Below, piece by piece: positions 9,801 through 64,000 of a DNA stretch of 64,000 nucleotides (its first letter is position 1; each line of letters starts with the position of its first letter). The notes below the pieces were generated by a model. That model had not been told where the DNA came from. It saw only the letters and a program-made list of their open reading frames with translations, and searched no databases. Location of the stretch: contig CM059431.1 in NCBI GenBank assembly GCA_030390025.1, positions 156,924,001 through 156,988,000 of the forward strand, written 5' to 3'. The translations under genes were made by a program, and so were the position numbers. The DNA comes from Squalus acanthias. Lineage: Eukaryota.

Positions 9801-11500
9801 CAAGATCATACCCATACGTAGTTATTTGTGCCGTTAACTCATCCCTTTTGTTACGAATCCTACTTGCATTGAGATAAAGAACTTTCAAATATGTTTTGTG
9901 ACACTTAGTTCCTGCTTTTTCCTTTTTTAACACTTTACGTTTTACTCCATACCTTCTGTCCCTTCCTGATACGCTTTCCTCTGTCTCCCTGCTCAGGTGC
10001 CCAACCCCCTGCACTTTAATTTAATCCCTCCCCAACAGCACCAGGAAACACTCCCCCTAGGACAGCGGTCCCGGCCCTGCCCAGGTGCAGACCGTCCGGT
10101 TTATACTGATCCCACCTCCCCCAGAACCTGTTCCAATGTCCCAGGAATTTGAATCCCTCCCCCTTGCAACTATCCTCTAGCCTCGTATTCAATTGAAATA
10201 TCCTCCTATTTCTACTCTGACGATCATGTGGCACTGGTAGCAATCCTGAGATTACTTCCTTTGAGGTCCTATTTTTTAATTTATCTCCTAACTCCCTTTA
10301 TTCTGCTTTTAGGACCTCATCCCCTTTTTTTACCTTTCTCGTTGGTGCTAATGTGCACCACGACAGCTGGCTGTTCGCCTTCCCCCTACAAAATGTTCTG
10401 TAGCCGCTCCGAGTCGTCCTTGACCATTGCACCAGGGAGGAAACGCACCATCCTGGAGTCTCGGTTGTGGCCGCAGAAACGCCTATCTGTTCCCCTTACA
10501 ATTGAGTCCCCTATCACTATATCTCTACCACTTTTTTTATCCCAGCCTGTGCAGCAGAGCCAACCATGGTGCCAGGAAGTTGGCTGCTGCTTCCTTCCCC
10601 TGATAAGTCATCGCCCCAACAGTATTCAAAGTGGTATATCTGTTTGAGAGGGGGATGTCCACAGGGGAGCAATGCATTACGTGCCTGCACCTCTTACTCT
10701 GCCTGGTGGTCACCTATATACTTTCTGCCTGTGTACCCTTTGCCTGTGGTGTGACCAACTCTCTAAACGTGCTATCAACGAGGTTCTCAGCATCGCGAAT
10801 GCTCCAATACGCCTCCATCCGCAGCTCCAGCACCTCAATGCGGTCTGTCAGTAGCTCCATCTGGATACATTTCCCGCACACATGGTTGTCAGGGACTCCG
10901 GAAGGGTCCCTGATTTCCCACATCGAGCACGAGGAGCATAACACGGGGCTGGGCTGTCCTGTCATGACTTAACCTTTAATTAATTTAACTTAAATTAAAT
11001 CAAATCAACACCACCAATTTCAGTCAACTAAAATATATACTCAACGGCCCTTGGTTACTAGCAATAGAAACTATATCCACAAAATTAAGACCTTATAAAC
11101 TTTATAAACTATGAACCTTAACTGTCAAAGTATGGAGTAGTATAAATACTTACCGAGCCGTACTCACCCAATCAGCTGCTCCCTCCTGCCCGCGTCACTT
11201 TTTGAATCGTGACGTGGCTCTGGAACGCCACCGCCGGTCTGAGATCGGTGTGCCTGTGAATGAAAAGCCCGCGAAAGTGAGTTCAAATACACACTGGACC
11301 TCCGGTCTCGCCGCTCCCGACACCAGCCTGTAAATGAAAAGCCCGCGAAAGTGAGTTCAAATACTCACTGGACCTCCGGTCTCGCCGCCCCCGACACCAG
11401 CCTGTAAATGAAAAGCCCGCGAAAGTGAGTTCAAATACTCACTGGACCTCCGGTCTCGCCGCTCCCGACACCAGCCTGTAAATGAAAAGCCCGCGAAAGT
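6886..11500 (-). mobile_element. Near full-length CR1 LINE (5' monomers, ORF1, ORF2, 3' tail), mutated
   Basis: ORF1 zinc-finger N-terminus CSSCSMWEIRD..HVCGKC (10714-10965) and SGNH esterase end (DGLHL, 10016-10243); endonuclease (LYLNA..VAITETW) and RT ORFs 7168-10014; aacataag tail at 6886-6910. Confidence 0.95.
11252..11500 (-). repeat. 74-bp tandem monomers (~3.4 copies) at CR1 5' end
   Basis: gcctgt starts at 11252, 11326, 11400 and 11474; units nearly identical. Confidence 0.95.
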
Positions 11501-38500: not shown

Positions 38501-40152
38501 CCTCCCCCAGAACCGGTTCCAATGTCCCAGGAATTTGAATTACTCCCCCTTGCCCCATTCCTCTAGCCACGTATTCATCTGAAATATCATTCTATTTCTA
38601 CTCTGACTAGCAGGTGGCAATGGTAGCAATCCTGAGAATACTACAGTTGAAATCCTATTTTTTAATTTACCTCCTATATTCAGATTTTAGGACCTCATCC
38701 AGATTTTTACCCATATCTTTGCTACTTATATGCACCAGGACAACTGGTTGTTCACCAAACAGAATGCCCTGCAGCTGCTCCGAGACATCCTTGACCCTTG
38801 CACCAGGGAGGCAACACACCATCCTGGAGTCTCGTTTGCGGCCGCAGAAACACCTATCTATTCCCCTTACAATAGAATCCCCTATCACTATAGCTCTCCC
38901 GCTCTTTTTCCTGCCGTCCTGTGCAGCATGGTGCCAGGAAGTTTGTTGCTGCTGCCTTCCCCCGATAAGCCATCTTCCTCAACAATATCCAAAGCGGTAT
39001 ATCTGTTTGAGAGGGGGATGGCCACAGCGGACCACTGCACCACCTGCCTGCGCCTACTACTCTGCCTGGCGGTCACCATTCCCTTCCTGCCTGTGCAGCC
39101 TTTACATGCGGTGTAACCAACTCATTAAACGTGATATGCACGACGTCCTCAGCATCGCGAATGCTCCAATATGTATCAATTCGCAGGTCCAGCGCCGCTA
39201 TGTGGTCTGCCAGTACATGCAGCTGGATACTCCTCCCGCACACATGGTCGTCAAGGACAAAGGAAGTGTCCCTGATTTCCCACATAGTGCAGGAGGTGCA
39301 TGCCACGGGGCCGAGCTGTGCTGCCATGAATTATACTTTAATTAATTTAAATAAAATTATGTCAAATCAGTACCACTAATTACACTACAATTATATGATA
39401 TACTCAATGGCCCTTGTTTACTCGCACTCCCCGCTACACAACAGAGACTTTAGAAATTATAATCGCAAAATTAAGACCCTCTAAACTTTATAAATTTTTA
39501 ACCTTAACTGTCAAACTGTAGAGTAGTATAAATACTAACCTGGCCGTACTCACCCGATCAGCTGCTTCCGCTTGGCCGCGTCACTTTTTGCATCGTGACG
39601 TTACTCTGGAACGCCGCTGACGGTCTGCGAGATTGGTAGGTCTCTGAAAAAAAGCCCACGAAAGTTGACGTTGAGTTTAAATCCTCACTGTACCGCCGCT
39701 CTCTGCCTCTCCCGACTCTGGCCTATGTAAAAAAGCCCGCGAAAGTGAATTTAAATACTCACTGTACCGCCGCTCTCTGCTCCTCCCGACACCTGCCTCT
39801 GAAAGAAAGCCCGTGTAAGTGAGTTTAAATACTCACTGTATCGCCGCTCTATGCCTCTCCCGACACCAGCCTCTCTTGGACTGAGATGAGGAGGAATGTC
39901 TTCACCTACAGAGTGTTTAACCTGTGGAATTCTCTACCACAGAAGGCAGTTGAGGCCAATTCATTAAATATTTTCAAGAAGGAGTTAGAAATATTTCTTA
40001 AGGCTAAAGGGATCAAGGGATATGGGGAGAAAGCAGTGACAGTGTACTGAATTTGGATGATCAGCCATGATCTCATTGAATGGCGGAGCAGGCTCGAGGG
40101 GCCTAATGGCCTAATCCTTTTCCTTTTTTCTATTCTTCTATCTTTCTATGTT
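35560..40152. mobile_element. Composite CR1: middle (+, 35560-36968), 5' half (-, 36970-39875), 3' end (+, 39877-40152)
   Basis: RT ORFs 35879-36949 (+); EN ORF 37172-37969 and ORF1 38667-39327 (-); 3' UTR resumes at 39877. Confidence 0.9.
39640..39875 (-). repeat. ~3 tandem ~72-80-bp monomers at CR1 5' end
   Basis: aaagccc(g/a)cgaaagtgagtttaaatactcactgtaccgccgctctctgcctctcccgac repeated; related to 11252-11500. Confidence 0.9.
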
Positions 40153-53273: not shown

Positions 53274-54610
53274 CATAGAAACATAGAAACATAGAAAATA
53301 GGTGCAGGAGTAGACCATTCGGTCCTTCGAGCCTGCACCGCCATTCAATGCGTTCATGGCTGAACATGCTACCTCAGTACCCCATTCCTGCTTTCTCGCC
53401 ATACCCCTTCATTCCCCTAGTTGTGAATATTATATCCAATTCCCTTTTGAATATATGTAGCGAACTGGCCTCAACAACCTTCTGTGGTAGAGAGTTCCAC
53501 AGATTCACCACTCTCTGGGTGAAGAAGTTGCTCCTCATCTCAGTCTTAAATGGCTTCCTCTTTATCCTTAGACTGTGACCCCTGGTTTTAGTTTTCCCTA
53601 ACATTGGAAACATTCTGCCCGCATCTAATTTGTCTAAACCAGTCAGGATTTTAAACGTCTGTATAAGATCCCCCCTCATTCTTCTGAACTCCAGAGGATA
53701 CAAGTTCAGTTGATCCAGTCTTTCTTGATATGTCAGTCTGGCCATCCCAGGAATCAATCTAGTGAACCTTCGTTGCACTCCCTCAATAGCAAGAATGTCT
53801 TTCCTCAAGTTAGGAGACCAAAACTGCACACAATTCTCCAGGTGTGGCCTCACCAAGGCCCTGTACAACTGTAGCATCACCTCCCTACTCCTGTACTCAA
53901 ATCCCCTTGCTATGAAGGCCATCATGCCATTTGCTTTCTTGACTGCCTGCTGCACTTGCCTTCCCACCTTCAGTGACTGATGTACCATGACGCCCAGGTC
54001 TCGTTGCACCTCCCCTTTCCCTAATCTGCCACCATTCAGGTAATAGTCTGCCTCCCTATTTTTACCACCAAAGTGGATAACCTCACATTTATCCACATTG
54101 TACTTCATCTGCCATACATTTTCCCATTCACCCAACCTGTCCAAGTCACTCTGTAGCCTCCTAGCATCCTTCTCATTGTTTACACTGCCTCCCAATTTAG
54201 TCTCATCCGCAAATTTGGAGATATTACAATTAATCACTTCGTCCAAATCATTAATATATAATGTAAACAACTGGGGCACAAGCACCGAACCCTGCGGTAC
54301 CCCGCTGGTCACTGCCTGCCATTTTGAAATTTACCCATTTACTCCTACTCTTTGTTTCCTGTGTGCCAACCAGTTCTCAATCCACGTCGACACATTACCC
54401 CCAATCCCATGTGCTTTAACTTTTCACACCAATCTCTTGTGTGGGACCTTGTCGAAGGCCTTCTGAAAGTCCAAATACACCACATCTACTGGCTCCCCCC
54501 CGTCCACCCTATTGGAAACATCCTCAAAAAATTCCAGAAGATTTGTCAAGCATGATTTCCCTTTCACAAATCCATGCTGACTTGGACGTATCATGTCGCC
54601 ACTTTCCAAA
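53274..54610 (-). mobile_element. Young CR1, 5'-truncated, with a 312-aa open RT segment
   Basis: ORF 53374-54312; (acatagaa)n tail. Confidence 0.95.
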
Positions 54611-55164: not shown

Positions 55165-55649
55165 CAGTAGAGATGCTACCTAGCCTCTCTTGATGATGGG
55201 CTTTGAAGGCCCCCAGCCAGATTACATTCTATGCCCTTGCTACCCTGAGTGGTTCTTCGAAGTGGTGTTCAACATTGAGGAGCTGTGATTCCTCAGCTGA
55301 GAGAGGGCGGTAGGTGGTAATCAGCAGGAGTTTTCCTTTCTCATGCTGGGCCTGAAGCCAAGAGTATTCCTGTGATCTGCAGTCAATGTAGAAGACTGCC
55401 AGTGCCCCTCCCTCCCGAATGCATACCATTGTGCTGCCACCTGTTGTTGGTCCGTCCTGCCGGTGGGAAGGAACATACCGAGGGATGTTGATGGAGGAAT
55501 CTTGGGACATTGGCTGAAAGATATGAGTCTTTGAGTATGTCTACGTCAGGCTGTTGCTTGACTCGTCTGTGGGACAGCTCTCCCAATTTTTGCAAAAGTC
55601 CCCAGATGTTAGTGTGGAGGAATTTGCAGAGTCGACTAGTCTGGGTGTG
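55165..55649 (-). mobile_element. LINE endonuclease N-terminus (its 5' part resumes after the ERV at 62447-62650)
   Basis: LHTNIWGLLQKLGELSHRRVKQQPDV; HRQDGPTTGG; LLLITTYRP. Confidence 0.8.
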
Positions 55650-56211
55650 TGTTAGGATGAAAATTATAGGGCTTAAAGCAGCAACGTAAAGAGTTAAAGA
55701 AAGTGTTGTAAAATTTGGACTCGTAAATAAGACAGTGCGATGAGTAATGTCTACAGTCAACATGCGTACGTGCGAGACAGCTTGAAGCCCACCAAGGAGG
55801 AACAAACGAATACAATAATAGCACAATGGTTACATTTGAGAACCAATCACCGCATGACTAGACAGTCCGGCCAAGCATATGTGGCGTAACACTTTGTATG
55901 TTTATAGTTTCGGAAGGGAAGTAACAAGAAAATTTTGCTTAAATTGCAGATTATAATTAAGTCTGTGGTGGAGATATATGAATGGGTAAGGGGCTTGTTG
56001 ATAGAGGAATTTGATTGGGTGCAGACATTTGTATGTAATGAATTGTGTACCGAACCTATAATGTATAAAAAAAAAGTTCTGATACCACTGTAATGACGAG
56101 AAGTTGATCAATATACAACGGGGTCTATGGCTCTTCTCCCAGGGCTCACTATTAAATAAACTGTGATCTTCTGCTTTGAGACAGACTCGAGTGAATTAAT
56201 TTTCCCCAACA
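55650..56211 (+). repeat. 5' LTR
   Basis: TG..CA; direct repeat of 61875-62446; TATA-like gtataaaa ~56064 and AATAAA ~56155. Confidence 0.95.
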
Positions 56212-56213
56212 AT

Positions 56214-56231
56214 TAGCGTAGTCTGCAGGAT
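56214..56231 (+). promoter_or_regulatory. Primer-binding site for tRNA-Ser
   Basis: TAGCGTAGTCTGCAGGAT vs TGGCGTAGTCGGCAGGAT (complement of the vertebrate tRNA-Ser 3' end): 16/18. Confidence 0.85.
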
Positions 56232-56689
56232 GCTCCGGAAGCGAAAGTCCTCCCGCATCAGTGAACCCGGATGAGAAGTCAATTTTGACCATCCAGAAAT
56301 TAAGTCACCTGGAAAGGCAGAGTGACAGTGCCGTAGCATCACGAATCAAGTAAAGTCTGTGAGAGGTAGGAGAAAACAGTTGTGAGAGTGTGGAACGCAA
56401 GTACTAAAGGGAACATTGTTTAGCAATAGATGTCGCGAAGGAATGAGTGAGTGACGAAACGACACAGACAAGTTGGGTGCCTAGCCTCAGCCTGAATTAA
56501 GAGAAATTAGTCCCACGTGATGGTCGGGATCAAGTTGGTATAGAGGCTCCAAAGCACCCTGGGAGACTGAAATCAGCAAATATACACGTGTGTTGTGACT
56601 AATTAACCGCTTGACGGTCTTTAAGGTATCAAGATCAAACCCGAGTAGAGGAACTCAGCATTTGGTAAGACTGTAAGTTGGACTACAAA

Positions 56690-58380
56690 ATGGCGTCGGG
56701 GAAAGAAATAGAATGAGGACCAACGGGGTTCCTTACTTGGTTCCATGCAGATGACCGGAAGGGTTTAGTTGATAAGATGACGAAGGAGGGGTGGGACCCG
56801 CTCCAGAATCCGAAATCTCAAAGCAGTGGTGGGAGGGTCAAAAACAGAAAAAGATAAAAAAGGCAGGGGTTGTCTAGTAAACCAATTAGTCGCATTAACG
56901 AACAAGGTGCAGCGACTCCACACTAGACTTGCAAGTAAAAATGAAATAATTCTTGATATAGAACAAGAGTTATTATTACCGAACGAGGCCAGACAGTCCT
57001 TGATGGGTACCGGCTGGACAAAACGGAGTTATGGAATAAAAGGCGGGCACATTTGTGCGCCTCGGTAAAAGTCCAGGTCTCCGAAAATAAGGACGAGATG
57101 CCACCTCCTTATGCCCCAGAGGCATCAGCCCCTTCTATGGAAGACAATGATGACGAAAACTTAGAGAAAGGGCAAAAGAACCCAAACGTAGTCAAAGCAG
57201 CCCCTATAAAAAGAGGGGGAGCGGTACAAAATCCCACATCCAAATACCAAGATTTAGCCACTTAAAACAAACAATATTGAACGATTTGGGAACATTGAAG
57301 CCCGGTAGCAGATGTGGGATATACACGACCTCCATCCTCGGGACATCCACCAGTTAGTACGGGCTAAATGCCCGGCTAACAAATGGAGGGAGGTGGATAA
57401 CCAAAACGGCCACCAAGACGGTGGCTGGACCGGCCGTATCACCTTAATTGCGGACAAGGCGGCCTAACTCGCGGCCTACAACACCTTTAGAACAGCGGTA
57501 CAGGGGGCATTAGGAGGATCTTCACCAAATTGGGGACGTATAATGATGATAAAACAGCGGAAAGGGGAAAGCAGTAATGATTATGTCGAACGATAGTTCG
57601 TCGTATACTAGGAATCACCGGGACAAGCAAATCCCCAGATGACAGACCAGTTCTTTATTCAAATGTTTAAGGACGGGTTGTCCCAATCCCACCAAGCGAT
57701 ATTAAAAATGGGAATAGTGGCGGCGAATACATATGATGCGGCGGTCCAGTGGGCGTGTCAGATAGATGCCAAGAGGCGGAATGAACACCAGTAATAAAAC
57801 AAGAAAGAGTAGGGGCCGCGGGAATACGGGAACTGTCCCAAAGAAAAAATGTGGCTTGTTTTAACTGTGGAAAGTTGGGTCATATGGCAAAAGAATGTAG
57901 GGCCCTCAAACAAAACCGACCGGTATGTGCTAAATGCGCAAGACCGGGACATTCAACCGAGAGGTGTTGGTCAAAAATGGAAGAGCCAAACCAGACCGGG
58001 ACCATTGATATGTATCAAAAGTTCCTGCAGTATGTAAAGGAACAGGGTGGTGGCCACGGACTAGCAGCGGCCCCCATCAAGAGGGAGACGGAAGATCCCA
58101 AAGTCTATCTACCGGCACTGTTAGGGGGCCAGCAGTGCGATATGTTAGTAGACACTGGAGCTTCTGTATCCATTACCGATTTACCCCTTCCACTCGCCAA
58201 ACAAAGGATAGACATAGTGGTGTTGGGAGGGGAGCGTTTACATGCATTTAAAAGTGAGGTACAACTATTGGAATTAGCGGGACGACTATTACCTGCGCAA
58301 TTTTATGTATGCCCAAACAGTGAGGGGACTATCTTAGGAATAGATTTGTTAAAATAATTTAATTTGTTGTTAGATTCAAG
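56690..58380 (+). pseudogene. gag: gag-pro, with stops and frameshifts
   Basis: aaaATGG start; PPPY late domain (~57101); two CX2CX4HX4C knuckles and protease LVDTGA..ILGIDLL in the same ORF (57851-58357). Confidence 0.9.
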
Positions 58381-58384
58381 GGGA

Positions 58385-60043
58385 GGAAGAGGAAGGATGC
58401 ATACAAGATGAGCCCATCATCGAGCCCCAGATTACTCTGTACGTGAAAGGATCTAGAACATATGTAGAGGGATCCCCACGAACCAGATGGGCAGCAGTAA
58501 TCGATCACTTAGAGACTGAATTATCAGGAAGGCTGGACGGAAGACTATCAGCTCAAGTGGCCGAGATAGTGGCGCTGACGAAGCGGCTAGTATTAGCCAA
58601 GGGAAAAACGGCAAATATCTACACGGATAGCAAGAATGCTTTTGGGGTCGTACACGATTATATGACTGCCTCGGGAAGAAGGGTTTTTTTAACAATAGGA
58701 GGGGATCGTAAAAAACACCAGCAGCGGATAGAGGCCCTCTTGAAAGCTGCAAAGGCCCCAACACTAGCAGCAGTAAATAAAATAAAGGCACACTAGAAAA
58801 TACAAAACCAGGAACAAAGAGGGAACCATGCCGCTGATTTAACATCACAGAAAGCTCTTGAACAAGAAGTGGTTGAAATAAAACATAGCCAGCGCACAGA
58901 TGGAAGAAATAGATATTAGGAAATTACACAAAGAGACAGGAATGGTACCGCACAGGAGGTAGACCAGACAAGGAAGCTATAAGGTCGAAAATGGGTAGGT
59001 GATTGCCCCCGCATGTATCAGACAAATACTCTTAGAACTATACCATGGAGACGCCCATAGAGGAAGGGGGCCGACGATTGACCTAATAAGTAAAGAATGG
59101 TGGTGGCCTGGGTTAGGAAGAAATGTGGCAAAACATTGGCAACACTTTATCGCGTGTGTGCCCAGCAAAACCCAGGACGACCCGTTAAGGTACGGATTGC
59201 CAACCAACCACCGCCGAGGGTTCCATGGGAAAATATACAAATAGACTTCACCGTCCATTCCCCACGTCAAGGGGTAAGAAGTATTGCCTGGTAATAATAG
59301 AGCAGTTTACTAGGTGGGTCGAGGCATTCCCAACCCGGAACTGTACTGCCTCCACCGTGGCACGAATAATGGCAGAGGAAATAATTCCCAGATGGGGAAT
59401 ACCGATCCAAATTGACTCAGATCAGGGAACTCACTTTACGGGAGCAGTGTTGAAGAATGTATGCAAGTGGATGGGCATAAAGCAGAAATTCCACATTCCG
59501 TACCATCCCCAAAGTTCTGGAATGGTGGAACGAACGAACCGACCCTTGAAAACAGCCTTAGCCAATGCTTTAGGGGAAACACATCAACAGTGGGTAGATT
59601 TGTTACCAGCAGTCTTAATAAAACTAAGAGCGACCCCAAACCGAACAACGGGCTTATCAACACATGTGCTAATGACGGGGAGGGCAATGCAACTCCCCCA
59701 TGGCATAATAACTGGAGGAGAGGAAGTGGGTCCTCCAAAGGATAAGCTCCGAAGGTATGTCCCCAAATTAAGCAGTCAATTAAAGGAAATGAGGCAGCAA
59801 ACGCGGGACAGACAGGAAGAAGAGGATAAGCATTTAGAATTGACAGCGTTCCCATATATCCCTCCAGCCGGGACTAAGGCAAAAGTTGCAGGTTTAGCAG
59901 GGAAACCCGGGTTTGCCCCAAAATGGTCAGGACCATATCAGATTCTAATTAGTGGAGATACGTGTGCTTGCATTGATATGACGGGAATGGGACGACGGAA
60001 GCACTGGACACAGCTAAAAGTCTATGACCATTCGCCAGCTTAA
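58385..60043 (+). pseudogene. pol: pol remnant: RNase H and integrase
   Basis: YV(K)GS, SAQVAE, NIYTDS, IKAH; H-X3-H zinc-binding region, QIDF, DSDQGTHF, SSGMVERTN, GPY module. Confidence 0.92.
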
Positions 60044-60373
60044 AGATGACTATACCAGAACAAGTACCTTTTGTAGAAAGTGAAGAATACGCTAGACAAT
60101 AGAAAGAATGGGAGTGGGTGCTGGTACGTTGGTATGGACAATATACATTATCATAATGGGATACACCATGGGACGTATCCTGAAGCATGTATGGGTATAA
60201 TCCCATCGACTGCAACCGGTCTGGCAGGAGGAGGGAATCCAAATGATTATGATCGAGGAATTAGACTTATGACAGTATTCTATTCACCATCACAGGAAAA
60301 TTGTATCTACAAGCAACAAAGCGGTTAGTTTGGCGATATAGCTTTTTGGACATTGTTAACATAAAGTCATAAG

Positions 60374-61766
60374 ATGAACGTGTTACGCAATATCAAGTGT
60401 AGTTTGCTTGCTTGTATAATCATAATATGTAGACTCGGGAGGTCTCAGGCTAGAGTACCCCCAACAGGCCAAAAGAGGGTTACTGGTGAACACCTTTTTT
60501 TATATATGTCATAGACATATGCCAAGAGAGTTGATGTTGCCAGCTGTTGGGTCTGTGCCCATGTCCCCACGCACTCGGAGGAAGGAGTCCCCCTACAACC
60601 AATCCAACTGAGTGATGATGAGACGGGCAGTTGGATGTTTGGAGTTAGAGCAGGATGCACAAGTGTGGGCTGTTATGTAGCCAAGAGAGACGGCAGCAGT
60701 ATAGCAAAGCTGCAACGTCATGGGTACAACCCAGAATTTTGTAGTGGGTGGACACGGTCAACATATATCGATTCCTATCTACCACCGTTCCTGAGAACTA
60801 GGAGTAAGAAGGGACAAAGGAGGGGACTATGTCTCGCAAAGAGGGGACGACCGACAGATCCTATTGTGAGCTACAGTAGCTGCACATATAACATTGCCTT
60901 GCCTGGTGAAACGGGTAGTGTGAAACTCCCGTCACTAAACGAAAGCGGTGACTTTTCAGTACAATGGGACCCCCTAGAGGTAAATAAGTATACCCCCTAC
61001 AACGGGACTCATTTCGTGTGCGGTCATAGGGCCTATACCTGGTTGCCCGAGAATGGACGGGTTCTTGTTATCTGGCTTATGTCATACCCTACATATATCA
61101 CATGGGTTCGCTGAAGGACCTCCACGGGAGAGCCAGACGAGCCATCACGGAGTCTGAAAGATTATGGGCAATTGCGTCCCCCTGTTATGGAGCGGGTAAA
61201 TTGGCAAGGGAATCCATTAACCTCGCCTCCGTCTTGGAGCAGGTGTCCAACGATACAGCTGAAGCCCTAGTTAAGGTTAATGCAGAGATGGTAGCCCTCC
61301 GCACAGTAGCTCTACAAAATCGGATGCCCCTTGTCTATGTGTTGGCCGAAAAAGGGGGAACTTGCGCCCTAACAGGTACAGAATGTTGCACTAAAATACC
61401 AGATAACTCGGAAGCAATAACTAACTTGGCAGAACACATACAGGAAGAATTAAGTAAATTAAAACAAATCCGGCATCCACCCTTTGGGCCTGTGCAACTG
61501 GATGGTTGGGATCACTTTGCGCATCAGTAATACAATAATTGACTTTGCTCTTTGTTATAATATTAGTGATGTATGGTATGGCTCTATTGTTAAAAAGTTG
61601 CTGCGCTGAAATGTCACGGCCTGCTGTAAGTGTCATGGTGGTTAACCAAGTGACACCCGGAGAGAGAGATGTGTGGATATGAGTCCCTATACAAGGATGC
61701 CACAGTCGGACTAACGGACTTTGTGCCTCTTGATGTAAACATACAGAACTTCAGGCCCGAATACTA
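60374..61766 (+). pseudogene. env: env, gamma-type (SU CWVC; TM with ISD and CX6CC), disrupted
   Basis: Signal-like MNVLRNIKCSLLACIIIIC; CWVC; furin site RARR; LQNRMPLVYVLAEKGGTCALTGTECC; hydrophobic anchor ~61540-61600. Confidence 0.9.
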
Positions 61767-61874
61767 AAAGTCCTGCCAAAGGCTGTATCAAAGATCTACT
61801 TACATTACCAGAAATCCGTATGAGGCTGGTTCCCTGTCAAAAAGGAGTTTTGATCAGGGACCAACAGGAGGGAC

Positions 61875-62446
61875 TGTTAGGCTGAAAATTATAGTGCTTA
61901 AAGAAGCAACCTAAAGAGATAAAGAATGTGTTGTAAAAGGTGGACTCGTAAATAAGACAAGACAGATTGGTTTCGCTGATGTAATGTCTACTGTCAACAT
62001 GCATACGTGCGAGACAGCTTGAAGCTCACCAAGCAGGAACAAACGACTACAATAATAGCACAACAATTACATTTCAGAACCAATCACTGCATGACTAGAC
62101 AGTCCGGCCAAGCATATGTGGCGTAACACTTTGTATGTTTATAGTTTCAGAAGGGAAGTAACAAGAACATCTAGCTTAAAGAGCAGATTATAATTAAGTC
62201 AGTGGTGGAGATATATGATTAGTTGAGGGGCTTGTTGCTAGCGGAATGTGATTGGGCGGAGACATTTTTATGTCATGAATTATGTTAGCAGCCCTATGAT
62301 GTATAAAAGATGTTCCAATGCCTCTGTAACGACGAGAAGTTGATCACTAGACCACGGGGTCTATGGTCTTCTCCCAATATACGCTGTATAATAAACTGTG
62401 ATCTTTGCTTTGAGACAGACTCGAGTGAATTCATTTTTCACCAACA
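61875..62446 (+). repeat. 3' LTR, preceded by polypurine tract aacaggagggac
   Basis: Direct repeat of the 5' LTR. Confidence 0.95.
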
Positions 62447-62659
62447 GTATGCATTTATCGTGTTTGAAGCCGGTGCCGACGTTGATGCCGGGTGGCCTTG
62501 CGGTTTTATTGGTATTACTGTTCTTGTAGCGTTGTGTTGCAACTGAGTGGCTTGCTCGGCCATTTCACAGTGCAGTTAAGAGTCAACCACATTTCTATGT
62601 GTCTGAAGTCACATATAGGTCAGACCATGTGTGGTAAATACTGCAGATTACCGGCCTAG

Positions 62660-62949: not shown

Positions 62950-64000
62950 CTCGGAATAACAAGCGCTAAAACCCGGAAATTGCAATCTATCAAGTATCAA
63001 CTTGACAGATCCTCCGCCTCCCCATGAGAGGTAGAACTGCTGGCACAGATCTGCGATACTTTATCAATTGCTGGCCAGCAGCTACGGACGAAACCGCAGC
63101 GACAGTTAAAAACAGGCGAACAGCCTGCATTCTATCTGAAGAAGCAGCAGGAAGAAGATGTGGAAAGCAGGGGACTCTGAAACGGGACATATTTATCTTT
63201 GAACGTGAACAAAGTTCTTGTTAGAACGCCTGATTTAAGTTTCTAACATCATTCTTTGTTAAATATTTCATTGGTTTTGGATATTGTTCTGAGGATTTTA
63301 GGTAATTTAAAGAGGAACTCTCGCTGTGGACAAGATAAGCATTGTATTCAGTTAGATTTCATTTTTTTTTTATTTTAAAATGTTTTGATAGTCTGCGATG
63401 CGCATTTCAGGATCCTAAACGTGAATGCAGATCACTGGGGAAGTGCTCATGACTCCCTCGTCCTCTGTCACTCGGAATTATATAGCGCCCGCACCACATT
63501 GCCTCCAGGATCTGCATGGATATTGGGCGACAAGGGCTACCCGCTAAAACTATGGCAGATGACACCGTAACACAGGAAAAGTAATGAGGCACAGAAGAGA
63601 TACAACCGGGCACACGTGTCGACATGGAATGTGGTGGAGAGGACATCGGGGTTCTGAAATCACGCTTTCGGTGCCTGGACATGGCAGGGGCGTCTTTTCA
63701 GTATTCTCCTCTGAAAGTGTCAAGGATTGTGATGGCCTTTTGCGCTTTGCACAATGTTACCCTATGGGAAGGACTCACCCTTAACCCTGCTGACGAGCTC
63801 CAGGTTGAAATGGAGGACATGGAGGATGCCAATTGCCCTGTGGCCAGACCTGATGGGTTGAGCGATAGGCAGCCGAAAGCAAAGCTGCTGGGAACTGCTC
63901 GTAGCCAACACGTTCACGAGGCGTTGATAGTGTCGCCTTGTAACACCCCCTCCCCCAGCAAAGCACAGAAAAGAACAGACACAATTTAAAGTGAAACAGT
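62950..64000 (+). mobile_element. PIF/Harbinger DNA transposon remnant with HARBI1-like DDE transposase C-terminal half (~63375-63800)
   Basis: NVLIVCDA..GSAHDS..WILGDKGYPL..MTP; YNRAH..VVERT; GVLKSRFRCLD..CALHN; contains frameshifts. Confidence 0.88.

What the first reader, a model, noticed from the sequence alone, without database searches (positions are those of the whole stretch)
55650..62446. Two-LTR endogenous retrovirus with an unusual mix of traits
Seen: tRNA-Ser PBS; apparent 5-bp TSD (GTGTG/GTATG, one mismatch); Gag starting MASG (no Gly2) with PPPY and two CCHC knuckles; Gag running into protease with no stop or frameshift; integrase with a GPY module; gamma-type Env. Known: gamma/epsilon ERVs usually have one knuckle, a gag stop and 4-bp TSDs. 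Class III (HERV-S/L) elements have 5-bp TSDs and HERV-S uses tRNA-Ser, but they lack knuckles. Inference: a divergent, possibly undescribed fish retroviral lineage, or an env recombinant.
Basis: partly seen in the sequence, partly recalled or inferred. Interest (0 to 1): 0.72.

Follow-up and report, generated by a model that had tools for sequence, protein, structure and literature searches.

The report
Dead shark provirus lacking reverse transcriptase
This is a long-dead, partly deleted copy of a retrovirus embedded in what is probably a shark genome; it belongs to a little-studied group of aquatic retroviruses whose relatives have already been reported in sharks and turtles, and most of its odd features turn out to be shared with those relatives or to be damage to this one copy.

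Summary
The provirus is real: LTRs 55650-56211 and 61875-62446 (88% identical), a tRNA-Ser PBS (16/18), a probable 5-bp TSD (4/5), Gag with PPPY and two knuckles, protease, RNase H, integrase with GPY, and gamma-type Env. Protease/RNase H/integrase trees put it outside gamma-, epsilon-, spuma- and ERV-L-like clades, in the poorly resolved grade between snakehead retrovirus and class I. Env groups with shark, sturgeon and pike envelopes. The lineage is already sampled in print: whale-shark rh_ty_ERV4 (Xu 2018) has nearly the same protease start and two knuckles but an in-frame gag stop; elephant-shark CmiERV lineage I (Han 2015) has the same PBS, LTR ends and Env clade. The missing gag stop is therefore most likely a mutation of this copy (about 80%), although one ray gene model also reads through. 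The family is multicopy in three coded organisms, and one contig shows a canonical env splice. Verdict: new member of a known, unnamed kind; modest interest.

The parts
55645..55649 (.). left copy of probable 5-bp target site duplication (GTGTG)
   Evidence: 4 of 5 match with the right copy; 4- and 6-bp alternatives match 0/4 and 1/6
55650..56211 (+). 5' LTR, 562 nt, TGT...ACA; TATAAA at 56064, polyA-like hexamer at 56151
56214..56231 (+). primer binding site, tRNA-Ser (16 of 18), 2 nt after the LTR
   Evidence: tRNA-Ser 3' end as printed in PMC3299991
56365..56366 (+). probable env splice donor (AG|GTAGGA)
   Evidence: one contig of run X11 joins 56363-56365 to 60294-60296 with GT..AG ends, shorter side 20 nt; context
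56690..58060 (+). gag, broken by stops and frameshifts: MASG start, PPPY 57101-57112, capsid-like 57318-57779, two CCHC knuckles 57857-57898 and 57926-57967; the 3' end is placed by analogy with relatives' stops
   Evidence: (44% to Mobula P0196 over 57540-57776; 25% to P0007 Gag)
58061..58390 (+). protease (DTG at 58151), in frame with the knuckles, one premature stop near its end
   Evidence: Pfam RVP E 0.001; 49-64% identity to eel, bamboo shark, devil ray and unnamed proteases
58378..58401 (+). deletion junction: about 1.6 kb of RT and tether missing
   Evidence: P0021 residues 72-603 and L041 residues 100-623 have no match anywhere in the window; other copies leave the window sequence at 58378
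58401..58865 (+). RNase H, one in-frame stop
   Evidence: Pfam RNase_H E 8.5e-11
58999..60043 (+). integrase: H2C2 domain from 58999, catalytic core from 59255, WSGPY at 59924-59938; frameshifts between the zinc domain and the core
   Evidence: Pfam Integrase_H2C2 E 2e-9, rve E 3e-16; AlphaFold model and Foldseek
60295..60296 (+). probable env splice acceptor (pyrimidine-rich ...CACAG|G)
60374..61682 (+). gamma-type env, broken: signal-like N-terminus, CWVC 60545-60556, furin RARR 61129-61140, ISD-like segment from 61312, CX6CC 61363-61389, membrane anchor about 61500-61610
   Evidence: Pfam TLV_coat E 5e-7; TM 63-69% identical to shark-type Envs
61862..61874 (+). short polypurine tract
   Evidence: sequence directly 5' of the 3' LTR
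61875..62446 (+). 3' LTR, 572 nt, TGT...ACA; TATAAA at 62302, AATAAA at 62390
62447..62451 (.). right copy of probable TSD (GTATG)
55200..55644 (-). host high-copy repeat (LINE-like endonuclease region; label recalled) into which the provirus inserted; high-depth repeat continues at about 62452-62650
   Evidence: contig depth on both flanks is roughly 10- to 100-fold that inside the element; no Pfam hit

Best explanation
A dead, internally deleted provirus of a multicopy ERV family in a cartilaginous fish (host inferred). Its ancestor was a simple retrovirus of the aquatic grade between snakehead retrovirus and class I, the lineage that holds whale-shark rh_ty_ERV4. Shown: two LTRs, tRNA-Ser PBS, gene order gag-pro-(RT lost)-RH-IN-env, gamma-type Env, many disablements. 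Inferred mechanism: transcription from the 5' LTR; tRNA-Ser-primed reverse transcription; unmyristoylated Gag with a PPxY late domain and two zinc knuckles; Pol made by readthrough of an in-frame gag stop, as in its relatives; Env from a spliced mRNA (leader donor at 56365, acceptor at 60296); integration with a 5-bp duplication inside an older host repeat. This copy lost RT either before insertion (packaged and copied by a helper) or after it, and most likely lost its gag stop by ordinary mutational decay. It makes no working protein.
For: Anatomy. Placement: 43-row PR+RH+IN tree puts it outside a 97/95 clade of eel ERVs, the P0081 group, epsilon and gamma, and inside an 81/85 clade with L040/L044 and class I; with relatives' RT, 86/99. 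AU rejects joining gamma, epsilon and the P0081 group strongly, spuma and ERV-L-like marginally. Gag stop: 12 of 12 references examined have an in-frame stop 27-41 codons before the protease Asp, the nearest ones 31-32; rh_ty_ERV4 has one at 30 and CmiERV-I at 44 (read by eye); SnRV, SSSV and ZFERV have one (PMC13517186). At half the LTR divergence a given codon has a 17-18% chance of change. Shark host: Env best named hits Heterodontus 68%, Heptranchias 63%. Multicopy family, another deletion derivative and an env splice.
Against: A RefSeq model from Mobula hypostoma (P0196, two knuckles, 64% over 47 protease columns) also runs from Gag into protease without a stop. No copy of the window's own family could be read at the junction. 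The 12 references were picked by me from 115 loci, and L042 has gag and pol in different frames. RT, the standard marker, is missing; SnRV, eel, L040/L044 and P0001-group joins are all not rejected. Xu 2018 lists rh_ty_ERV4 in the block labelled clade Huo (label order only), whereas my trees lean to the base of class I. The TSD rests on one insertion with one mismatch; the splice on one contig of a run only guessed to be RNA.
Confidence: 0.78

Rival explanations
1. The open gag-pro junction is a real trait of an elasmobranch sub-lineage: Gag, protease and Pol are one reading frame, as in single-ORF LTR retrotransposons, and the Gag:Pol ratio is set some other way (for example by splicing or premature polyadenylation).
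For: The window reads open over 190 codons across the junction; Mobula P0196 does too; in P0338 protease runs in frame into RT, so there is no pro-pol shift in a near relative.
Against: rh_ty_ERV4 has the stop (by eye); 12 of 12 references examined have it. The search that found P0196 used a knuckle-plus-protease query and so favours fused frames. A zebrafish RefSeq model (P0349) also reads Gag into Pol, while the P0081 protein of the same group begins at the protease, so such models can be artefacts. The 'longer' search found no Gag-Pro-Pol protein (1 hit among 2215 candidates, a Pol starting at protease, weak evidence).
Confidence: 0.13
2. The element is a recombinant: Env, PBS and LTR ends come from a CmiERV-lineage-I-like virus, and Gag-Pol from an rh_ty_ERV4-like virus (or the reverse). 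This can hold together with the best explanation.
For: CmiERV scaffold 2 has the tRNA-Ser PBS, TGTTAG...AACA ends, a similar PPT end and a TM about 55-60% identical by hand count, but a one-knuckle coiled-coil Gag and a DSG protease (by eye). L041 and L043, near in Pol, use other primers (tRNA names recalled) and L043/L044 TM is only 29% identical. Chen 2021 reports frequent Pol/Env incongruence in fish ERVs.
Against: The TM tree is unresolved inside the non-mammalian clade, which also holds L044. CmiERV-I integrase core is also about 60% identical over 91 residues by hand count, close to L040/L044 at 60-63%, so shared descent with fast Gag change is not excluded. The Env of rh_ty_ERV4 could not be seen (long lines cut).
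Confidence: 0.35
3. A class III (HERV-S / XtERV-S / ERV-L-like) element with a captured gamma-type Env.
For: tRNA-Ser PBS, 5-bp TSD, TGT/ACA ends, no Gly2 and gamma-type Env all occur in XtERV-S and ERV-S.1-Dbi.
Against: Two knuckles and GPY are present, both absent from ERV3/ERV4; no dUTPase hit after integrase; integrase core 32% identical to the ERV-L-like L101 against 60-68% to fish ERVs; clade with L101 rejected at p 0.036 (marginal, long branch, one representative).
Confidence: 0.04
4. An ordinary gamma- or epsilonretrovirus-like ERV1 whose oddities are all decay.
For: Gamma-type Env, PPPY, GPY; ML trees put it on the class I side.
Against: AU p 3.6e-8 for gamma and 2e-4 for epsilon; all 15 crocodilian ERV1 groups have 4-bp TSDs, while 4 bp matches 0/4 here.
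Confidence: 0.05

Closest known systems
rh_ty_ERV4, whale-shark ERV consensus of Xu et al. 2018 (PMC6001957, S2 Data; neighbours in S2 Fig include turtle Ap_sp_ERV16, Pe_si_ERV8 and eel elements, in the block labelled clade Huo)
   Same: Protease start nearly the same (ALLGG.QCDMLVDTGASVS), two knuckles with the second followed by W, shark host (eye comparison of the first 400 characters of each record).
   Different: It has RT and an in-frame gag stop 30 codons before the protease Asp (and a second stop upstream); its PBS, TSD, integrase and Env could not be seen. Protease differs enough that it is a different family.
CmiERV lineage I, scaffold 2, elephant shark (Han 2015, PMC4422223; 'SnRV-like')
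   Same: tRNA-Ser PBS, LTR ends TGTTAG...AACA, similar PPT end, short-SU gamma-type Env of the same clade, GPY/F-type motif (by eye).
   Different: One knuckle, coiled-coil Gag, DSG protease, in-frame gag stop, RT present, longer LTRs; no flanks given, so no TSD.
Snakehead retrovirus (L036, named by its 10,688-nt length and layout, recalled)
   Same: Gag starts MAS without Gly2; similar spacing of the gag-pro junction; clade with the window not rejected (AU p 0.064).
   Different: One knuckle, gag stop, non-gamma Env of 1134 codons, other PBS, integrase core only 39% identical.
Epsilon-related and SnRV-related fish ERVs with gamma-type Env (ERV-EA / ERV-SA; Chen et al., bioRxiv 2021.11.23.469661)
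   Same: Same overall make-up: non-gamma Pol plus gamma-type Env without accessory genes, reported in 6 cartilaginous fish.
   Different: Membership of their Pol-LE.1, Pol-LE.2 or SnRV-related clades could not be tested; the supplements were not available.
XtERV-S / HERV-S (class III with class I Env; PMC8278194)
   Same: tRNA-Ser PBS, 5-bp TSD, no myristoylation signal, gamma-type Env.
   Different: No knuckle, PSAP late domain, gag stop, dUTPase-like segment after IN, ERV-L-type Pol.

Membership tests
rh_ty_ERV4 lineage (Xu 2018) | protease motif and two-knuckle nucleocapsid | tested here: met
   eye comparison with the supplement; no alignment program could be run on it
rh_ty_ERV4 lineage (Xu 2018) | RT clustering | not testable with these tools
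   RT is deleted in this copy; no RT-bearing copy of the family could be fetched
rh_ty_ERV4 lineage (Xu 2018) | in-frame gag stop before protease | tested here: not met
   window reads open; judged probable decay of this copy, not shown
Clade Huo / SnRV-like ERVs | Pol clusters with snakehead retrovirus | tested here: inconclusive
   ML trees do not join them; AU p 0.064 does not reject; RT absent
CmiERV lineage I | tRNA-Ser PBS, LTR termini, Env clade | tested here: met
   by eye
CmiERV lineage I | one-knuckle coiled-coil Gag and DSG protease | tested here: not met
   window has two knuckles, PPPY and DTG; CmiERV read by eye
Epsilonretrovirus | Pol clade with WDSV/WEHV | tested here: not met
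   AU p 0.0002
Epsilonretrovirus | large non-gamma Env and accessory ORFs | tested here: not met
   Env is gamma-type with no BLAST hit to WDSV Env; no accessory homologue found
Gammaretrovirus / ERV1 | Pol clade with MLV/REV | tested here: not met
   AU p 3.6e-8
Gammaretrovirus / ERV1 | gamma-type Env, GPY/F motif, PPxY | tested here: met
   the Env is of the non-mammalian clade, 100/100 apart from exogenous gammaretroviruses
Gammaretrovirus / ERV1 | 4-bp TSD and Gly2 | tested here: not met
   4 bp matches 0/4; Gag starts MASG
Class III ERV-L / HERV-S / XtERV-S | tRNA-Ser PBS (S group) and 5-bp TSD | tested here: met
   TSD from one insertion, one mismatch
Class III ERV-L / HERV-S / XtERV-S | no zinc knuckle, no GPY/F | tested here: not met
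   two knuckles and WSGPY present; criteria
Class III ERV-L / HERV-S / XtERV-S | Pol clade with ERV-L | tested here: not met
   AU p 0.036 with one ERV-L-like representative (L101, label inferred); marginal among nine tests; no HERV-S sequence was on hand
ERV4 (Chong 2014) | no knuckle, no GPY/F, 5-bp TSD | tested here: not met
   only the TSD fits
Lokiretrovirus | Env like paramyxo/pneumovirus F protein | tested here: not met
   Env is TLV_coat with CX6CC; criterion
ERV-EA / ERV-SA groups (Chen 2021) | position in their Pol-LE.1, Pol-LE.2 or SnRV-related clades and Env-C clades | not testable with these tools
   supplements of the preprint closed; journal version not held

The most novel reading that the evidence does not exclude
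An elasmobranch sub-lineage of the SnRV-to-class-I grade (this family plus the Mobula element) has truly lost the gag-pro stop and encodes Gag-Pro-Pol in one open frame, with two knuckles, tRNA-Ser priming, a 5-bp TSD and a gamma-type Env: a vertebrate retrovirus using neither readthrough nor frameshift, and spreading partly as RT-less derivatives.
Probability: 0.13. Interest if true: 0.7.

Novelty: new member of a known kind. Interest (0 to 1): 0.3.

Why it matters
As it most likely stands, it adds end-to-end anatomy (LTRs, PBS, TSD length, late domain, splice sites, Env clade) to an unnamed aquatic retrovirus lineage that the papers I read know mainly from RT trees. It shows that tRNA-Ser priming and a 5-bp TSD, often read as class III marks, also go with two knuckles and a GPY integrase near the base of class I, so these marks are poor classifiers in fish. 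If the open gag-pro frame proved to be a family trait, it would be a translation strategy not seen in the vertebrate retroviruses covered by the papers read here and would bear on how readthrough arose.

Tried and rejected
No whole genome is held, so copies could not be collected; the window has no solo LTR or second copy of the flanking repeat, so the empty site was not seen. The integrase ORF alone found no viral contig. The knuckle-protease query with 'longer' gave 1 hit among 2215 candidates. The PDB search gave only foamy and HIV integrases and Foldseek only generic retroviral integrases at 32% identity or less among the top ranks. No listed contig bridges the window's own protease-RNase H junction, but 61 joints were not shown. 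The mixture-model AU test on 43 rows did not finish and was replaced by LG+F+G4 fast searches on 26 rows. The 330-nt pol-env gap, the leader and the 3' tail gave no Pfam or BLAST hit in any frame tried. SSSV, ZFERV, HERV-S and alpha/beta/delta/lenti references were not obtained, so they are absent from my trees. Eight searches for a description of this lineage found no paper giving its PBS, TSD or junction; subscription journals and Repbase were not searched. Scan look-ups by sequence and by place found nothing. LTR dating is too rate-dependent to use (29-293 My).
Full report
OBSERVATION. The two LTRs (55650-56211, 61875-62446) share TGT...ACA ends and are 88.2% identical over 558 aligned bases, K2P 0.129. 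Two bases after the 5' LTR lies an 18-mer matching 16 of 18 bases of the human tRNA-Ser 3' end as printed in PMC3299991 (one passage seen). The flanks GTGTG and GTATG fit a 5-bp duplication and no other length from 4 to 8 (likelihood ratios against chance: 24 for 5 bp, 6e-4 for 4, 3e-4 for 6); this is one insertion, and the empty site was not seen. Gag starts MASG at 56690, has PPPY and two CX2CX4HX4C knuckles, and knuckles and protease share one stop-free frame of 190 codons. Integrase ends in WSGPY; Env has CWVC, RARR, an ISD-like stretch and CX6CC. Gag, pol and env are all broken: 15 in-frame stops in eight counted segments, plus frameshifts.

HOST AND FAMILY. No genome is held. The host is inferred to be a cartilaginous fish: the best named Env hits are Heterodontus (68%), Heptranchias (63%) and Pristiophorus (52-54%) among 14 hits, and close protease hits come from Mobula and Chiloscyllium. 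Contigs of 4 of 16 listed runs, from three coded organisms, cover all 30 bins of the region in each run, mostly at under 95% identity, so this is a multicopy family; depth is not a copy number. Both flanks are far deeper than the element, so it sits inside a host repeat. Two runs hold another deletion form that leaves the window sequence at 58378 and rejoins at 59173. One contig of a run only guessed to be RNA joins 56365 to 60296 with GT..AG ends (shorter side 20 nt), at a good donor and acceptor 78 nt before the env ATG; this is a hint of the env mRNA, not proof.

PLACEMENT. References came from IMG/VR and metagenome contigs; names such as WDSV, SnRV, Xen1 and MoMLV are my reading of length and ORF layout, and L101 is called ERV-L-like from its motifs. 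A tree of protease, RNase H and integrase (43 of 57 rows, 14 near-duplicates or short rows dropped; 528 columns; LG+C20) puts the element outside a 97/95 clade of eel ERVs, the P0081 group, epsilon and gamma, and inside an 81/85 clade with L040/L044 and class I. With the RT of relatives added (30 rows, LG+G4), the element, P0338, the Chiloscyllium fragment, L040/L044 and class I form an 86/99 group. AU tests on 26 rows reject joining gamma (p 3.6e-8), epsilon (2e-4) and the P0081 group (0.002), marginally spuma (0.025) and ERV-L-like (0.036), and do not reject SnRV (0.064), eel (0.22), the P0001 group (0.35) or L040/L044 (0.63) (fast searches, non-mixture model, nine tests). So it lies in the unresolved grade between SnRV and class I. 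The TM tree separates it and 16 other non-mammalian Envs 100/100 from exogenous gammaretroviruses and is mostly unresolved inside.

WHAT IS IN PRINT. Xu 2018 (PMC6001957; parts 1-2 of 5 of the text, S2 Fig as text, parts of S2 Data) holds whale-shark rh_ty_ERV4. Read by eye from the 400 characters shown, it has the tail of one knuckle, a second knuckle, an in-frame stop 30 codons before the protease Asp (and another 14 codons upstream), and a protease start nearly the window's. In S2 Fig its label stands beside turtle and eel elements in the block between the class II and foamy blocks that carries the label 'Clade Huo'; I saw label order, not the drawing. Han 2015 (PMC4422223; part 1 of 2 of the text, part 1 of 3 of the dataset) gives CmiERV scaffold 2, lineage I, said to cluster with SnRV: it has the tRNA-Ser PBS, the same LTR ends and an Env of the window's clade (TM about 55-60% by hand count), but one knuckle, another Gag type, a DSG protease and an in-frame gag stop. 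Chen et al. (bioRxiv 2021.11.23.469661; parts 1-3 of 6 and passages) report gamma-type Env on epsilon-related and SnRV-related Pol in fish, including 6 cartilaginous species, with frequent recombination; their supplements were closed and may contain this family. Chong 2014 (PMC4299795; passages and supplement 1) gives ERV1 1-2 knuckles and 4 bp, ERV3/ERV4 none and 5 bp, and lists five unclassified groups with 4- or 5-bp TSDs, noting that Ovex1/SnRV-related ERVs can have GPY/F and a knuckle. Jern 2005 (PMC1224870, passages) lists two knuckles for epsilon and HERV-H. XtERV-S (PMC8278194, passages) and ERV-S.1-Dbi (bioRxiv 2024.03.17.585361, passages) share PBS and TSD, but XtERV-S lacks knuckles. 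Passages of PMC13517186, PMC5210030, PMC4977317, PMC7947760, PMC12440569, PMC12690878 and PMC10435555 gave background only. Eight searches found no description of this lineage's PBS, TSD or junction; closed journals and Repbase were not searched.

THE GAG-PRO JUNCTION. For decay: 12 of 12 references examined have an in-frame stop 27-41 codons before the protease Asp, and the nearest (L040, L041, L044) at 31 with an ungapped match to the window's protease start (chosen by me from 115 loci; L042 has gag and pol in different frames); both published shark relatives have it; a codon has a 17-18% chance of change at half the LTR divergence. For a family trait: Mobula P0196 also reads through. That hit came from a query that favours fused frames, and a zebrafish RefSeq model likewise fuses Gag and Pol where the P0081 protein of its group starts at protease. 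I put decay at about 80-85%. No copy of the window's own family could be read at this site.

MECHANISM. Shown: the anatomy above. Inferred from relatives and general retrovirology: LTR-driven transcription, tRNA-Ser priming, non-myristoylated Gag with a PPxY late domain, Pol by readthrough, Env by splicing, 5-bp staggered integration. The RT loss means this copy either spread with a helper or was deleted in place; the second deletion form in other runs shows that such derivatives recur. Age is tens to hundreds of millions of years depending on the rate (29 or 293 My at the two rates in Han 2015), and uneven LTR mismatches may inflate it.

VERDICT. Observation confirmed, interpretation partly supported. 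A dead, RT-deleted member of a known but unnamed aquatic retrovirus lineage; the trait mix is real apart from the probably accidental open gag-pro frame. New member of a known kind, interest 0.3; the novel case (true single-frame Gag-Pro-Pol family) has probability about 0.13 and would deserve 0.7.

Noticed in passing
window 55650-56211 vs 61875-62446: LTR differences are transversion-rich (41 transversions, 25 transitions) and denser in alignment columns 360-540 (10-12 per 60) than elsewhere (2-7 per 60); the two LTRs may not have been identical at insertion or one may have been converted.
   Followed up: no
window 60044-60373: A 330-nt gap between pol and env holds an 83-codon open frame (60077-60328) without any Pfam or BLAST match; L043/L044 have a similar gap of about 370 nt. 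Two runs show a form lacking 60118-60200.
   Followed up: partly
window 60374-60500: The SU is short: the conserved CXXC region begins about 35 residues after the start, whereas P0174 and P0176 carry about 110-130 residues in front of it; an Env without an N-terminal receptor-binding domain is possible.
   Followed up: no
window 58378-59173: Runs X4 and X11 (two coded organisms) hold a different deletion form that lacks RNase H and most of RT, with 167 other letters between.
   Followed up: partly
proteins P0212, P0340, P0290, P0021: Related proteases occur in sea turtles (Eretmochelys, Caretta) and eel, matching the mixed shark-turtle-eel neighbourhood in Xu 2018 S2 Fig; host switching across classes is likely.
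   Followed up: partly
L041:481-500 and L043:6666-6685: Relatives near in Pol use other primers (tRNA-Tyr-like and tRNA-Gln-like; names recalled), so the PBS is not a marker of the whole grade.
   Followed up: no
window 63400-64000: Broken DDE_Tnp_4 (Harbinger/PIF-type) transposase fragment, Pfam E 3e-12.
   Followed up: no
window 1-55200: The rest of the window is dense with decayed LINE (CR1/L2-like, label recalled) fragments; 53374-54330 (-) is an open 318-codon RT C-terminal piece (Pfam RVT_1). Tandem repeats lie at about 11250-11500 and 39640-39875.
   Followed up: no
protein P0349 (Danio rerio XP_073791153.1): A 1632-residue gene model reads a one-knuckle Gag straight into Pol, while the P0081 protein of the same group starts at the protease; either a frameshift junction bridged by the gene model or a real fusion.
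   Followed up: no
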